A stretch of DNA of 32,000 bases from Copranaerobaculum intestinale (GCF_009831105.1 NZ_WUUQ01000001.1:780001-812000); one strand, 5' to 3'; positions 2,305-31,922 are shown, counted from the stretch's first letter. The notes: generated by a model not told the origin, from the sequence alone. Program-made: numbers and translations.

Positions 2305-3291
2305 ATGAAACGTATATGTATGTTAGCAGTTATCACGCTGCTGATAAGCGGGTTTACCGGATGTACTCAAACCGATAAGAAACCTAAGGATGAACATAAA
2401 GAACAATTAACTGAAAAGCAAACCGACACAAATGTTTTGGTAGCTTATTTCTCCAACACCGGAACGACTGAGGGTATCGCCGAAATGATTGCAGATGAAA
2501 CCCAAGGTACTCTGTATGAAATACAACCGGAAAATTCATATACCGAGGAAGACCTAAATTATCAGGATACAGACAGCAGATCAAGCCGTGAGCAGGCTGA
2601 TTCATCAATCCGTCCGAAAATTTTGAAGTCAATCGATCACATGGAAGCATTTGATGTGATATTTCTCGGCTATCCGATCTGGATGGGAGACGCACCAAAG
2701 ATTATTCATACCTTCCTCGAAAGCTATGATTTTTCACAGAAACAAATCATTCCGTTTTGTACGTCGGGAAGCAGTGATATCACCTCCAGTGCCGAGGTAT
2801 TAAAGGCCCTTGTGCCGAATACAAAATGGCTCAGCGGCAGACGATTCTCAAAGGAATCCAGCCCGCAAGATGTGCAGAAATGGATTTCCGCTCTAACATC
2901 AACACATTCTGAGGATAAAACGAAAGCCAAAGCAAAGCTTTATTTAAAAATCAATAATCATGTTCTGGAAACAGATCTTATTGATCACGCAAGCACCCAA
3001 GCTTTGCTGGCCTTGCTTAAAGAACACGATCTGACGATTTCGATGCGAGATTTTAACGGCTTTGAGAAAGTCGGTGAGATTGGTACAACGCTTCCAAGAA
3101 CGGATGAATCCCTTACAACCAAAGCAGGTGATCTGATTTTATATGAAGGCAATCAATTTATTATTTATTACGATGTCAATACATGGAAGCTTACAAAACT
3201 AGGAGAAATCAAAAATTGTTCAGAAAATGAGCTGAAATCAATTCTTGGAAAAGGCGAAGTGAATGTAACATTATCACTATCAAAGAACTAA
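2305..3291 (+). CDS. lipoprotein: Flavodoxin_4-like domain fused to a cyclophilin-like domain
   Basis: GGAGGTGAAAGA RBS before ATG 2305. Signal peptide plus lipobox MKRICMLAVITLLISGFTGC. Flavodoxin motifs VLVAYFSNTGTTE and IIPFCTSGSS. C-terminal LYLKINNHVLETDLIDHASTQ...DLILYEGNQFIIYYD resembles the cyclophilin-like fold often fused to these flavodoxins. The 2197 upstream extension lacks an RBS. Confidence 0.75.
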   Translation: MKRICMLAVITLLISGFTGCTQTDKKPKDEHKEQLTEKQTDTNVLVAYFSNTGTTEGIAEMIADETQGTLYEIQPENSYTEEDLNYQDTDSRSSREQADSSIRPKILKSIDHMEAFDVIFLGYPIWMGDAPKIIHTFLESYDFSQKQIIPFCTSGSSDITSSAEVLKALVPNTKWLSGRRFSKESSPQDVQKWISALTSTHSEDKTKAKAKLYLKINNHVLETDLIDHASTQALLALLKEHDLTISMRDFNGFEKVGEIGTTLPRTDESLTTKAGDLILYEGNQFIIYYDVNTWKLTKLGEIKNCSENELKSILGKGEVNVTLSLSKN

Positions 3292-3480
3292 GCAGTATAC
3301 TTGATTAGATATAGAGATGTAAACCCATTTATTAAATTTTTGCGACCTTTCGATTTTCAAGTTTATAATAACTGCTTTTTGTTATTCCAGACACTGTCTT
3401 TCATGAAAATCAAGCCTGTTTAACATTATGTTTTTCAAAGGATATCTGCTTTAAAATTTTAAATTTTTTCAAATTTCACT

Positions 3481-3509
3481 TTGAATTTTTTCTTGAAATC
3501 CGATATACT
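3481..3509 (+). promoter_or_regulatory. sigma-A-type promoter for the MATE leader (TTGAAT-17 nt-TATACT)
   Basis: -35 TTGAAT at 3481-3486, 17-nt spacer, -10 TATACT at 3504-3509. AT-rich phased A/T tracts upstream. An overlapping alternative is TTGAAA 3493-3498 / TATAAC 3516-3521. Confidence 0.4.
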
Positions 3510-3518
3510 ATAACATAT

Positions 3519-3575
3519 AACGTGTAGCGATCATGCGTAATTCCAGTTGTGCATGGGCTGCGCGTTTTCTTTTTG
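3519..3575 (+). ncRNA. structured leader RNA element, copy 1 (riboswitch/attenuator candidate with terminator-like U tract)
   Basis: 10-bp outer stem AACGUGUAGC (3519-3528) / GCUGCGCGUU (3557-3566). Inner stem CAUGC/GCAUG. Apical loop GUAAUUCCAGUUGU. Followed by the U tract UUUUCUUUUU. Shares CGUGUAGC...CGUAAWUCCAG with copy 2. Confidence 0.5.
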
Positions 3576-3664
3576 AAAAAGTCCTGGAAGTAAGGTGATT
3601 TTTATTCATAAATAACGATATATCGCTTCGATAAAATATATAAGCAGATGATAAGAAAAGACAT

Positions 3665-3717
3665 AAGCGTGTAGCCAACGGCGTAAATCCAGCACCGTTA
3701 AACTATGCGCTTTTTTA
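3665..3717 (+). ncRNA. structured leader RNA element, copy 2 (riboswitch/attenuator candidate with terminator-like U tract)
   Basis: 10-bp outer stem AAGCGUGUAG (3665-3674) / CUAUGCGCUU (3703-3712). Inner stem AACGG/CCGUU. Apical loop CGUAAAUCCAGCA. U tract UUUUUUAUU runs into the AGGAGGA RBS of the MATE gene. Confidence 0.5.
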
Positions 3718-3733
3718 TTAGGAGGAAATCAAT

Positions 3734-5149
3734 ATGGAAACAGCGAATCAATATTTAGGAACCGAGCATATCGGTAAATTAATGAAGAAGTATGCCGTGC
3801 CATGTATTATATCCTTATTGGTAGGTGCGCTTTATAATATAGTCGATCAGATTTATATTGCGAATGCGAGTTATCTCGGTTCTTATGGAAATGCCGCAAA
3901 TACAGTAGTTTTCCCGCTGACTGTGGTTGCCTTGGCAATTGCGGTCATGATTGGAGATGGCTGCTGCGCGTTTGTCAGTATCAGTATGGGCAAGCGGAAA
4001 GTAGAAGCGGCGAAGCAAAGTGTTGGCAACGCAGTACTCATGAGTATTGTTTGCAGTTTATTGTTGACCTTTGTATTTTTGATATTTCAAAAACAGATTA
4101 TCACGTTATTCGGCGGTACTGTAAATATGGAAACTTTCCGATACGCGAAAGAGTATTTTTTCTATATCAGCCTTGGTATTCCGTTTTATATGTTTGGACA
4201 GGCGATGAATCCCATAATCCGCGCTGATGGCAGTCCAAAATTTGCGATGCTTTCAACCCTTGCCGGAGCAGCGATCAACTGTATCCTTGATCCGATCTTT
4301 ATCTTTGGTTTTCGTTGGGGAATGATGGGCGCAGCCACAGCTACCGTAATTGGACAGATTGTTACCGCAGCCTTTGCGGTATGGTATCTTCAGCATATGA
4401 AAGTGATCAAGCCATCCATAAAAAACTTTCATATTGACTATTCAATTTTGGGTCGAACCTTACTGCTGGGAATCACCAGCTTTCTGTCGCAGATTTCCTT
4501 AGTGATCGCGATGGCCGCAATCAATAATATGATTCAGAAATACGGGGCACTCGATGCTGTGTTCAAACAGCCGCAGTATGCACAGATTCCCATGGCAGTC
4601 GTTGGTATCGTAATGAAGTTCTTTCAAATCGTTATATCGATTGTTGTAGGCATGGCTGCTGGGTGTATTCCGATTGTCGGATACAATATGGGAGCGCAGA
4701 ATCGCACACGGGTAAAAAAGCTTTTTACTAAGTTATTGCTCGCAGAAGCAAGCGTTGGGATTGCTGCCTTCTTATTAGTCGAGCTGTTTCCACGTTCAAT
4801 TATCTCAATCTTTGGAGCAGCCCAAGAAAGCAGCTACTATACCATGTTTGCAGTTAGAGCCTTCCGCATATATTTATGCATGATTATTTTTGCCTGTATC
4901 AATAAAGCTTGCTTTATCTTTCTGCAGGCAATGGGTAAGGCATTGGCATCGACGGTTCTTTCGATGTTCCGTGAAATTGTATTTGGTGTCGGATTTGCGT
5001 TGCTCTTGCCTCTGTTTTATGGCTTAGACGGGGTTCTGTATTCCATGCCTGTTTCTGATCTATGCACTTTTATCGCAGCTGTCTATCTGATTCTGCGCAC
5101 ATATAAAGAGCTTGATGATCAGCAATTAACTTTATCGCATGCGGATTAA
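3734..5149 (+). CDS. MATE family efflux transporter (MepA/NorM-like)
   Basis: 471 aa with about 12 predicted TM helices. N-terminal LMKKYAVPCIISLLVGALYNIVDQIYI is a typical MATE signature. AGGAGGA RBS 7 nt upstream. Confidence 0.9.
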   Translation: METANQYLGTEHIGKLMKKYAVPCIISLLVGALYNIVDQIYIANASYLGSYGNAANTVVFPLTVVALAIAVMIGDGCCAFVSISMGKRKVEAAKQSVGNAVLMSIVCSLLLTFVFLIFQKQIITLFGGTVNMETFRYAKEYFFYISLGIPFYMFGQAMNPIIRADGSPKFAMLSTLAGAAINCILDPIFIFGFRWGMMGAATATVIGQIVTAAFAVWYLQHMKVIKPSIKNFHIDYSILGRTLLLGITSFLSQISLVIAMAAINNMIQKYGALDAVFKQPQYAQIPMAVVGIVMKFFQIVISIVVGMAAGCIPIVGYNMGAQNRTRVKKLFTKLLLAEASVGIAAFLLVELFPRSIISIFGAAQESSYYTMFAVRAFRIYLCMIIFACINKACFIFLQAMGKALASTVLSMFREIVFGVGFALLLPLFYGLDGVLYSMPVSDLCTFIAAVYLILRTYKELDDQQLTLSHAD

Positions 5150-20438: not shown

Positions 20439-20514
20439 TGGGGTATAGCCAAGCGGTAAGGCACCAGACTCTGAATCTGGCATTTCCTTGGTTCGAATCC
20501 AAGTACCCCAGCCA
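20439..20514 (+). tRNA. tRNA-Gln (anticodon CUG)
   Basis: Cloverleaf: acceptor UGGGGUA/UACCCCA, anticodon stem CCAGA/UCUGG with loop CUCUGAA, T arm CUUGG-UUCGAAU-CCAAG, and encoded GCCA 3' end. Confidence 0.9.
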
Positions 20515-31846: not shown

Positions 31847-31922
31847 TGGTGGAGCTTATCGGGATCGAACCGATGACCTCCTGCGTGCAAAGCAGGCGCT
31901 CTCCCAACTGAGCTAAAACCCC
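31847..31922 (-). tRNA. tRNA-Ala (anticodon UGC)
   Basis: The reverse complement reads GGGGTTTTAGCTCAGTTGGGAGAGCGCCTGCTTTGCACGCAGGAGGTCATCGGTTCGATCCCGATAAGCTCCACCA. It has the G3:U70 identity pair, anticodon loop UUUGCAC and an encoded CCA. Confidence 0.95.

What the first reader, a model, noticed from the sequence alone, without database searches (positions are those of the whole stretch)
3519..3717. Two tandem, covarying stem-loop elements in the 220-nt leader of a MATE exporter (riboswitch-like; possibly the mepA/guanidine-IV class)
Seen in sequence:
- Two elements of about 50 nt (3519-3566 and 3665-3712) share CGUGUAGC, a 6-7 nt gap, then CGUAA(U/A)UCCAG.
- Both fold the same way. The outer stem is 10 bp: AACGUGUAGC/GCUGCGCGUU in copy 1 and AAGCGUGUAG/CUAUGCGCUU in copy 2. 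The 3' arms differ, but pairing is kept through G-U/U-G versus G-C/U-A changes. That only works on the + strand RNA.
- The 5-bp inner stem has an unrelated sequence in each copy, CAUGC/GCAUG versus AACGG/CCGUU. I read that as covariation.
- A conserved apical loop of 13-14 nt follows. Each element runs straight into a U tract, so each can act as an intrinsic terminator.
- The copy 1 loop UUCCAG has an exact complement, CUGGAA, at 3584-3589 in the loop of a weak downstream hairpin. This suggests a loop-loop or pseudoknot contact.
- The copy 2 U tract abuts the AGGAGGA RBS.

Established knowledge:
- The mepA motif (guanidine-IV riboswitch) controls MATE-type exporters by a kissing-loop mechanism coupled to a terminator.
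- Tandem riboswitches give sharper dose responses.

Inference:
- This is a tandem ligand- or protein-responsive attenuator.
- I cannot recall the guanidine-IV consensus well enough to confirm membership, so it may be that class or a new one.
Basis: partly seen in the sequence, partly recalled or inferred. Interest (0 to 1): 0.7.

Follow-up and report, generated by a model that had tools for sequence, protein, structure and literature searches.

The report
Tandem undescribed attenuator RNAs before MATE exporter
The two look-alike hairpins ahead of this drug-exporter gene are real copies of a widespread leader RNA of gut Clostridia that matches no Rfam family and is not the guanidine-IV riboswitch; it probably switches between a small sensor fold and a transcription terminator in response to an unknown signal.

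Summary
The hairpins at 3519-3566 and 3665-3712 share CGUGUAGC..GCGUAAWUCCAG, and each ends in a U tract.

They belong to a large family. About 112 are gut or rumen Bacillota.

The family sits in front of MATE exporters of two subfamilies. It also precedes CarD-like proteins, small DUF2798-like membrane proteins, a 79-aa hypothetical protein, Cytidylate_kin2 and an ABC exporter.

No Rfam 15 family matches. Published guanidine-IV and Gd4v examples have a different architecture and different conserved bases, so that membership is rejected.

New here: covariation defines a roughly 34-nt sensor fold. It has a closing helix P1, a nearly invariant 5 x 9 nt internal loop, and a short hairpin P2. This fold excludes the terminator. 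The terminator's 3' arm pairs with the sensor's 5' half in 94 cases and with its 3' half in at least 13.

The promoter-proximal "A" copy followed by an RBS-proximal "B" copy recurs in 41 of 98 loci.

Most likely this is a double ON-attenuator, either a riboswitch or a protein-dependent element, whose ligand is unknown. It appears undescribed, within the limits of my searches.

The parts
3466..3486 (+). Conserved promoter-upstream element overlapping the -35 region (TTTTCAAATTTCACTTTGAAT). The family consensus is TTTGTGCAAAA-N3-4-CCTTTGAMA.
   Evidence: Consensus derived from 76 anchored promoters upstream of A-type copies (also seen). Its function was not tested.
3481..3509 (+). Sigma-70-type promoter: TTGAAT (3481-3486), 17 nt spacer, TATACT (3504-3509). 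The predicted start is about 3515-3517, so copy 1 begins at the 5' end of the transcript.
   Evidence: Promoter scan. In about 60 loci the -10 box ends 9-13 nt before GUGUAGC.
3517..3550 (+). Copy 1 ('A-type') sensor core. P1 is 3518-3521 paired with 3546-3549. The 5' internal loop is GUGUA (3522-3526). P2 is 3527-3529 paired with 3534-3536, with loop AUCA. The 3' internal loop is GUAAUUCCA (3537-3545).
   Evidence: Covariance-model hit of 39.5 bits, E 9e-6. Covariation of P1 and P2. The centroid fold of the isolated segment shows P1 plus P2.
3519..3574 (+). Copy 1 terminator. The stem is 3519-3528 paired with 3557-3566, with an inner stem; the U tract UUUUCUUUUU runs 3565-3574. Its 5' arm consumes the P1 5' strand, the 5' loop and the P2 5' strand of the sensor.
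   Evidence: MFE -23.3 kcal/mol, z -4.1. Terminator scan. Outer-stem covariation across 92 homologues.
3575..3663 (+). Spacer between the copies. It holds no gene and no promoter-like site on the + strand. In other genomes this position holds the 79-aa gene.
   Evidence: Similarity of the spacer to orf79 loci is no better than shuffles.
3664..3696 (+). Copy 2 ('B-type') sensor core. P1 is 3667-3668 paired with 3692-3693. The 5' loop is GUGUA (3669-3673). P2 is 3674-3676 paired with 3680-3682, with loop AAC. The 3' loop is GUAAAUCCA (3683-3691).
   Evidence: Covariance-model hit of 44.6 bits, E 7e-7. Covariation.
3665..3716 (+). Copy 2 terminator. The stem is 3665-3674 paired with 3703-3712, the inner stem is AACGG/CCGUU, and the U tract runs 3711-3716.
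   Evidence: MFE -18.7 kcal/mol, z -3.8. Covariation across homologues.
3720..5149 (+). RBS AGGAGGA (3720-3726) and the regulated MATE-family exporter gene (3734-5149, 471 aa).
   Evidence: Pfam MatE, E 6e-31. NCBIfam MATE. Orthologues at 63-90% identity carry the same leader.

Best explanation
Architecture. The 220-nt leader of the MATE gene carries two copies of one cis-acting RNA family that has no match in Rfam 15. Each copy can adopt two mutually exclusive folds.
It is an intrinsic terminator and is by far the more stable fold, so it is the default OFF state.
- Fold 2 is a roughly 34-nt sensor. A 2-4 bp closing helix P1 and a 2-3 bp hairpin P2 enclose a nearly invariant asymmetric internal loop: 5'-GWGUR on one side and GUAADUCCR-3' on the other.

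Mechanism (inferred). An effector binds the nascent sensor before the terminator's 3' arm is transcribed. This holds the 5' arm away from the 3' arm, and RNA polymerase reads through (ON). I consider a small toxic molecule or ion that the exporter removes the most likely effector, which would make this a true riboswitch. The two copies lie in series behind a single promoter. Both must be read through, which should sharpen the response.

Shown versus inferred.
- Shown: the family, both folds by covariation, their overlap, the gene associations and the tandem architecture.
- Inferred: the ON logic, the kinetic mechanism and the nature of the effector.
For: Family:
About 112 are Bacillota leaders with a U tract.
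- All five distinct MATE-orthologue leaders chosen by protein alone carry the motif.

Terminator fold:
- On 92 sequences, 92.2% of cells pair. Compensatory pairs are GC46/AU35 and CG62/UA18. None of 500 shuffles reaches the observed values.
- Variants change U to A, and A to G, with compensation in the partner strand.

Sensor fold:
- Pair 4/33 reads GC43 AU37 UA10 GU7 UG1, with only 1 of 99 unpaired.
- Pair 5/32 pairs in 100% of sequences.
- Pair 13/20 shows six pair types.
- Overall 85% of cells pair, and the covariation score is 0.393 against 0.165 for shuffles (0 of 500 reach it). All slid registers pair below 50%.
- Apart from G32, the P1 columns and columns 13 and 20 of P2 were not fixed by the search pattern.

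Two partners for one column:
- Column 4 covaries with column 33 in the sensor and with the 3' arm in the terminator.

Modular expression platform:
- 94 type I terminators use the sensor's 5' half. At least 13 type II terminators use its 3' half.

Regulon:
- Non-homologous genes lie downstream, and exporters dominate.

Energetics:
- The sensor is weak on its own (-1.4 kcal/mol) compared with the terminators (-23.3 and -18.7 kcal/mol).

Tandem order:
- The A-then-B/C order is found in 41 of 98 locus-strands.
Against: - No ligand is known, and none can be inferred from the gene set.
- The sensor is very small and has few Watson-Crick pairs. That fits a protein-binding site just as well.
- The alignment comes mainly from a pattern that fixed 18 bases, so conservation of the two blocks is partly by construction. 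Only 38 model-found variants and a handful of protein-selected loci are free of this bias.
- The main pair types follow three or four sequence subtypes, so the number of independent compensatory events is smaller than the cell counts suggest.
- There are no transcript data (TSS or termination sites) for any carrier organism.
- A conserved DNA element at the promoters hints at an additional, protein-based layer of control.
Confidence: 0.55

Rival explanations
1. The two-fold attenuator is the same, but the effector is a protein or another trans-acting macromolecule that binds the conserved internal loop. This would resemble LicT/SacY on RAT, HutP or PyrR. One candidate is the conserved 79-aa protein encoded between the A and B copies in many genomes. 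Another is a factor encoded elsewhere.
For: - The sensor is small and rod-like, with about 14 conserved unpaired bases. This resembles RAT-type protein sites.
- ARUCCAG is shared with the start of the PyrR-binding consensus. This rests on my own knowledge and was not tested.
- orf79 sits immediately after an A copy in about 20 loci and before the B copy, which is a HutP-like gene order.
- orf79 is highly conserved, has no Pfam domain, and has more than 3300 homologues.
- The conserved promoter element suggests a protein-controlled regulon.
Against: - Many motif-bearing loci, including this window, have no orf79 nearby.
- The AlphaFold model of orf79 (pLDDT 89.7) has no significant match to any solved RNA-binding fold.
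- The leader travels with the MATE gene into a Spirochaete genome bin (L071), which is easier for a self-contained RNA.
- No PRD/CAT, PyrR or HutP genes were seen nearby, and Rfam PyrR does not match.
Confidence: 0.3
2. It is a guanidine-IV (mepA motif) riboswitch or its Gd4v variant.
For: - The gene context is the same: MATE exporters in Firmicutes.
- It has a terminator with a conserved loop.
- ON logic is expected in both cases (bioRxiv 10.1101/2020.10.21.349134; PMC7736828; PMC9788692).
Against: - No Rfam match at E<=10.
- The transcript starts 2-6 nt before the motif, so there is no room for the 5' P1 hairpin.
- The loop has no complementary partner.
- The published constructs carry ACCGGG in the P1 loop and GUAGGU in the terminator loop. 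Neither is present here.
Confidence: 0.02
3. The hairpins are constitutive terminators, or an OFF-type element in which the conserved loop is recognised in the hairpin form to strengthen termination. In this reading the small sensor fold is an artefact of subtype structure in the alignment.
For: - The terminator fold is far more stable than the sensor.
- In type I the best-conserved block lies in the hairpin loop.
- The pair types of P1 largely follow subtypes A, B, C and II.
Against: - In type II the same block forms the terminator stem instead of its loop, so there is no common hairpin-form epitope.
- P1 pair 4/33 pairs in 98 of 99 sequences with five pair types, including within-subtype G-U variants and L059.
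- A constitutive double terminator between a strong promoter and an exporter gene would have no purpose.
Confidence: 0.1

Closest known systems
Guanidine-IV riboswitch (mepA motif; GGAM-1) and its Gd4v variant
   Same: - It sits in the 5' leader of MATE-type exporters in Firmicutes.
- Conserved nucleotides lie inside an intrinsic terminator hairpin.
- An ON switch is expected.
- It is enriched in gut organisms, as Gd4v is.
   Different: - The guanidine-IV aptamer is split between a separate 5' P1 hairpin and the terminator loop, joined by a pseudoknot or kissing loop. Here there is no upstream hairpin and no loop partner.
- The conserved bases are unrelated: ACCGGG/GUAGGU there, GWGUR/GUAADUCCR here.
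- The sensor here is one contiguous 34-nt hairpin that competes classically with the terminator.
HMP-PP riboswitch (thiS motif)
   Same: It is a very small aptamer embedded in, and overlapping, an intrinsic terminator. Such elements are easily mistaken for plain terminators, as discussed in bioRxiv 10.1101/2020.10.21.349134.
   Different: - The sequence and gene context differ (thiamin biosynthesis).
- Rfam models give no hit here.
RAT / LicT-SacY (BglG family) protein-mediated antitermination
   Same: An irregular hairpin of about 30 nt with conserved internal loops overlaps the 5' arm of a terminator. Binding stabilises it and allows read-through.
   Different: - The RAT consensus is absent.
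- There are no PTS sugar genes and no CAT-PRD regulator nearby.
- The effector here is unknown.
Tandem riboswitches of one class in series (for example tandem TPP or other same-ligand pairs; PMC9481103)
   Same: Two complete sensor-plus-terminator units lie in series in one leader, which should give a steeper response.
   Different: - The two units here are distinct, conserved subtypes (A and B/C).
- In many genomes they flank a small gene. The gene-less tandem therefore seems to arise by loss of that gene.

Membership tests
Guanidine-IV riboswitch (mepA motif) | A 5' P1 hairpin with a conserved loop (ACCGGG-type) upstream of the terminator | tested here: not met
   The promoter -10 box ends 9-13 nt before the motif, which leaves no room for a hairpin. 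No such hairpin or sequence lies before copy 2. Reference constructs.
Guanidine-IV riboswitch (mepA motif) | A pseudoknot or kissing interaction between the P1 loop and the terminator loop | tested here: not met
   Complements of the loop block are not enriched within 100 nt upstream or 160 nt downstream in 129 members. The window's CUGGAA is absent in L001 and L002.
Guanidine-IV riboswitch (mepA motif) | Conserved terminator-loop nucleotides (GUAGGU...) of the family | tested here: not met
   The loop here is GCGUAADUCCRG. The published 95 Lla and 95 Csp sequences differ.
Guanidine-IV riboswitch (mepA motif) | A match to a curated covariance model | tested here: inconclusive
   No Rfam 15 family matches at E<=10 in the window leader or at E<=1 in 8 other loci. 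I could not verify that a guanidine-IV model is in that release.
Guanidine-IV riboswitch (mepA motif) | Association with MATE/mepA, EmrE/SugE and other guanidine-related genes | tested here: inconclusive
   The MATE association is met. No SugE/EmrE, urea carboxylase or other guanidine-linked genes were seen among the downstream genes.
Intrinsic (Rho-independent) terminator | A GC-rich hairpin immediately followed by a U tract on the transcribed strand | tested here: met
   117 of 123 distinct pattern-hit sequences across the loci have a U tract.
Riboswitch (generic definition) | A conserved sensor structure supported by covariation, upstream of several non-homologous gene families, with alternative expression-platform arrangements | tested here: met
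Riboswitch (generic definition) | Direct, protein-free binding of a small ligand that changes the fold | not testable with these tools
   This needs in-line probing or termination assays.
PyrR-binding attenuator | The ARUCCAGAGAGGYU loop, the Rfam PyrR model, and pyr genes downstream | tested here: not met
   Only ARUCCAG is shared. There is no Rfam hit and no pyr genes downstream.

The most novel reading that the evidence does not exclude
This is a new riboswitch class, absent from Rfam 15. It has an unusually small aptamer of about 34 nt: a helix, a 5x9 internal loop and a helix. It senses a gut-relevant toxic metabolite, xenobiotic or ion. In Clostridia and relatives it controls a previously unrecognised regulon: two MATE subfamilies, an ABC exporter, a CarD-like RNA-polymerase-binding protein, a P-loop kinase-like protein, DUF2798-like membrane proteins and a conserved 79-aa protein. 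It is often deployed as two specialised copies in series. A still more novel variant is that the 79-aa beta-alpha-beta-beta protein is a new kind of RNA-binding antiterminator for this motif.
Probability: 0.45. Interest if true: 0.8.

Novelty: new member of a known kind. Interest (0 to 1): 0.68.

Why it matters
- If confirmed, it adds an orphan regulatory RNA class that is abundant in human and animal gut Clostridia. It is present in cultured species such as Ruminococcus flavefaciens, R. albus, Eubacterium ramulus, Blautia and Dorea.
- It links several uncharacterised gene families to one signal, which gives a handle on what these very highly conserved MATE exporters expel.
- Its small size and clean two-state design make it easy to test and possibly useful as a sensor part.
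- It also shows that a "terminator with a conserved loop" can hide a contiguous aptamer that only comparison between alternative terminator arrangements reveals.

Tried and rejected
RNA families and alternative folds:
- Rfam at gathering thresholds and at permissive E-values found nothing at the motif.
- Alternative local hairpins around the conserved loop were tested and are not supported. Closing pair C22-G32 with its neighbours gave 67% paired, below the shuffles. The ACUG/CAGU register gave 63% paired, about equal to the shuffles.

orf79:
- The idea that the window spacer is a relic of orf79 is not supported. Alignment scores fall within the shuffle range. Relics do exist in L057 and L129.
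- Pfam finds nothing significant for orf79.
- Foldseek against the PDB gives nothing below E 0.06.

Other checks:
- No CarD-like, DUF2798-like or Cytidylate_kin2 genes occur in the window.
- An 8-codon ORF (ATG 3648 to UAG 3672-3674) ends inside copy 2. The equivalent stretch of L001 and L002 shows no corresponding ATG by eye, so I treat it as chance.
- The metagenome scan was lost to a tool error.

Literature:
- Searches used the exact block sequences, gene-named motifs, and MATE/CarD/DUF2798 combined with riboswitch. The 2017, 2021, 2022 and 2024 motif-discovery papers were also checked. No description of this motif was found.

Full report
**1. The observation**

- Copy 1: 5' arm AACGUGUAGC at 3519-3528, 3' arm GCUGCGCGUU at 3557-3566, then UUUUCUUUUU.
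- Copy 2: 5' arm AAGCGUGUAG at 3665-3674, 3' arm CUAUGCGCUU at 3703-3712, then U6. The RBS AGGAGGA follows at 3720-3726 and the ATG at 3734.
- The shared pattern occurs twice in 32 kb, against zero in 100 shuffles.
- Both copies fold well on the + strand: -23.3 kcal/mol (z -4.1) and -18.7 kcal/mol (z -3.8). Copy 1 loses half its energy on the - strand.
- A sigma-70-type promoter (TTGAAT, 17 nt, TATACT; 3481-3509) lies immediately upstream of copy 1.
- The downstream gene is a MatE-family transporter. The upstream gene is a flavodoxin/cyclophilin-like protein that ends 228 nt before copy 1.

**2. It matches no Rfam family**

Rfam 15 gives only two tRNAs in the window at gathering thresholds. 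At E<=10 it gives nothing relevant across 3290-3760. It also gives nothing at the motif in eight further loci at E<=1.

**3. It is a large family**

- The MATE protein is 100% identical to proteins of a 'Clostridiaceae bacterium DONG20-135' and an Erysipelotrichaceae genome bin.
- Leaders of MATE orthologues at 90% and 86% identity keep both copies. An 80% orthologue in a different neighbourhood has one copy.
- About 112 of these are gut or rumen Bacillota: Lachnospiraceae, Oscillospiraceae, Ruminococcus, Christensenellaceae, Erysipelotrichaceae, Peptococcaceae, Emergencia and a 'Bacilli' genome bin. One is a Spirochaete bin.
- The family includes cultured strains (R. flavefaciens FD-1, R. albus, E. 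ramulus ATCC 29099, Blautia, Dorea, Angelakisella).
- Seven hits in GC-rich non-Firmicutes lack a U tract and look like chance.
- MATE-orthologue loci fetched by protein alone (L125-L130) all carry the motif.

**4. Genes controlled**

- Of 130 instances, 72 are followed by a MATE gene. These fall into two subfamilies, one at least 63% and one about 25% identical to the window protein.
- Other downstream genes are CarD-like proteins (PF02559 + PF21095), small DUF2798-like membrane proteins, Cytidylate_kin2 (PF13189) and an ABC exporter.
- A conserved 79-aa hypothetical protein, 'orf79', is also controlled. It has no Pfam domain and more than 3300 homologues.

**5. The terminator fold is real**

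- On 92 full-length type I sequences the 11-bp outer stem is 92.2% paired. Compensatory changes include GC46/AU35 and CG62/UA18. None of 500 shuffles reaches the observed values.
- Copies found with a covariance model rather than the pattern change block 1 (GAGUAGC, GUGUGGC and others) with compensation in the 3' arm.
- Block 2 (GCGUAA-D-UCC-R-G) stays almost invariant in these copies.

**6. The hairpin is only half of the element**

- In 94 cases the terminator's 3' arm pairs with block 1 (type I, as in the window). In at least 13 cases it pairs with block 2 instead (type II). An example is L088: GCGUAAGUCC-AGAAAAA-GGACUUACG-U tract.
- The blocks are therefore not conserved for the sake of the hairpin.
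- On a 99-sequence core alignment (A1) I found two helices that the pattern did not impose.
  - P2 joins the GC of block 1 to the GC of block 2, plus a third pair with six pair types (79 of 99 paired; 0 of 500 shuffles reach the covariation).
  - P1 joins the 2-4 nt before block 1 to G32 and the 3 nt after it. Pair 4/33 reads GC43 AU37 UA10 GU7 UG1, with one exception. Pair 5/32 reads CG84 UG15.
- The whole structure is 85% paired, with a covariation score of 0.393 against 0.165 for shuffles (0 of 500). All slid registers pair below 50%.
- The result holds on the 143-hit model alignment. Other candidate local hairpins fail.
- The sensor is thus P1, an internal loop (5'-GWGUR opposite GUAADUCCR-3') and P2 with a variable loop, which is often GNRA in type II.
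- Column 4 covaries both with column 33 (sensor) and with the 3' arm (terminator). This is the signature of alternative pairing.
- By nearest-neighbour energies the sensor is marginal: the centroid showing P1 plus P2 is -1.4 kcal/mol for copy 1. It would need tertiary contacts or an effector to compete.

**7. Position and tandem architecture**

- In about 60 loci a strong promoter's -10 box ends 9-13 nt before GUGUAGC. The 'A-type' copy therefore starts at the 5' end of the RNA.
- 41 of 98 locus-strands carry two copies. The upstream copy is always A-type (..ACU-GCGUAA.UCCAGUU). The downstream copy, next to the RBS, is B-type or C-type (GCC...GGCGUAAAUCCAGC, or AGUGUGUAGCY..UCAGCGUAAGUCCAGCUUA). 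The window is a typical A + B pair with starts 147 nt apart.
- In many Lachnospiraceae and Oscillospiraceae the order is promoter, A, orf79, B, MATE, Cytidylate_kin2.
- L057 and L129 retain only fragments of orf79. This suggests that the gene-less tandem arises by deletion.
- For the window itself this origin is not supported statistically.

**8. Mechanism**

Shown:
- Two mutually exclusive folds.
- A terminator as the stable default.
- A series arrangement behind one promoter. No + strand promoter was detected between the copies.

Inferred:
- An effector captures the nascent sensor and prevents terminator formation (ON). This suits exporters.
- Two locks in series should steepen the response.

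I cannot decide whether the effector is a small molecule or a protein.
- For a riboswitch: the breadth of distribution, the modular platforms, the exporter regulon, and transfer of the leader together with the gene into a Spirochaete bin.
- For a protein: the tiny, poorly paired sensor, the HutP-like placement of orf79, and a conserved promoter element (TTTGTGCAAAA-N-CCTTTGAMA).
- The orf79 model (pLDDT 89.7, beta-alpha-beta-beta) has no informative structural neighbour.

**9. Comparison with known systems**

- Guanidine-IV and Gd4v share the gene context and the idea of conserved bases inside a terminator. They are defined, however, by a separate P1 hairpin, a loop-loop pseudoknot and different conserved bases. 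These features were tested here and are not met.
- The logic resembles classic ON riboswitches and RAT-type antitermination.
- The embedding in a terminator recalls the HMP-PP class.

**10. Novelty and caveats**

I found no description of this motif in Rfam 15 or in the searchable literature. Subscription-only papers and unpublished repositories were not covered.

Most of the alignment derives from an exact pattern, so conservation of the 18 fixed bases is partly circular. The helices reported rest on unconstrained columns. The subtype structure reduces the number of independent events.

**Verdict:** this is a real, ordinary-in-kind but apparently undescribed and widespread attenuator/riboswitch candidate. 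It is not guanidine-IV.

Noticed in passing
window 3466-3486; also 76 promoters in loci L003-L102: A conserved element lies just upstream of and overlapping the -35 box of promoters driving A-type copies. Its consensus is TTTGTGCAAAA-N3-4-CCTTTGAMA, which is partly palindromic (TGCAAA..TTTGCA). It may be a transcription-factor site or an UP-like element shared by the regulon. A similar CCTTTGAAA-17-TATAAT promoter drives the divergent CarD-like gene in L125, which has no RNA motif.
   Followed up: partly
L125 375-614 (also L014, L023, L039, L050, L065, L080, L082, L087, L099, L104, L106, L108, L112, L122, L127, L130): A highly conserved 79-aa hypothetical protein (MKRVKAACICQTLHFMLKED...VIKQYNxSPVGDYLx) is encoded between the A and B copies. 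It has no Pfam domain and more than 3300 homologues. The AlphaFold model is confident (pLDDT 89.7) with a beta-alpha-beta-beta fold, and it has no significant PDB neighbour.
   Followed up: partly
L012, L026, L043, L061, L062, L068, L082, L109, L112, L114; L125 1-142 (- strand): CarD-like proteins (CarD_TRCF_RID + CarD_C, about 165-178 aa) are direct targets of the motif. In L125 and L126 one is encoded divergently from the motif-MATE operon. This is an unexpected link between an RNA-polymerase-binding factor and exporters.
   Followed up: partly
L027, L031, L032, L037, L046, L047, L048, L056, L067, L073, L077, L088, L095, L103: These are the 'type II' members. The terminator's 5' arm is the second conserved block (GCGUAARUCC) rather than the first, and the P2 loop is often a GNRA tetraloop (GAAA, GGAA).
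   Followed up: yes
L071 (Candidatus Ornithospirochaeta genome bin) and L034 (end of a 'Muribaculum' bin contig): The motif, and in L071 also a MATE orthologue at 71% identity, occurs in genome bins outside Bacillota. This reflects either horizontal transfer of gene plus leader or mis-binning.
   Followed up: no
window 3648-3674: An 8-codon ORF (AUG AUA AGA AAA GAC AUA AGC GUG UAG) ends at the UAG inside GUGUAGC of copy 2. The equivalent stretch of L001 and L002 shows no corresponding AUG by eye, so it is probably chance.
   Followed up: partly
The match is not above shuffle expectation.
   Followed up: yes
window 20439-20511 (+) and 31850-31922 (-): Two tRNA genes. These are the only Rfam gathering-threshold matches in the window.
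   Followed up: no
L129 620-680: A degenerate B copy (GCGUACGGCC..GGCGUAGAUCCAGC) escaped the covariance model. The family therefore tolerates more variation in both blocks than the pattern-based set shows.
   Followed up: no
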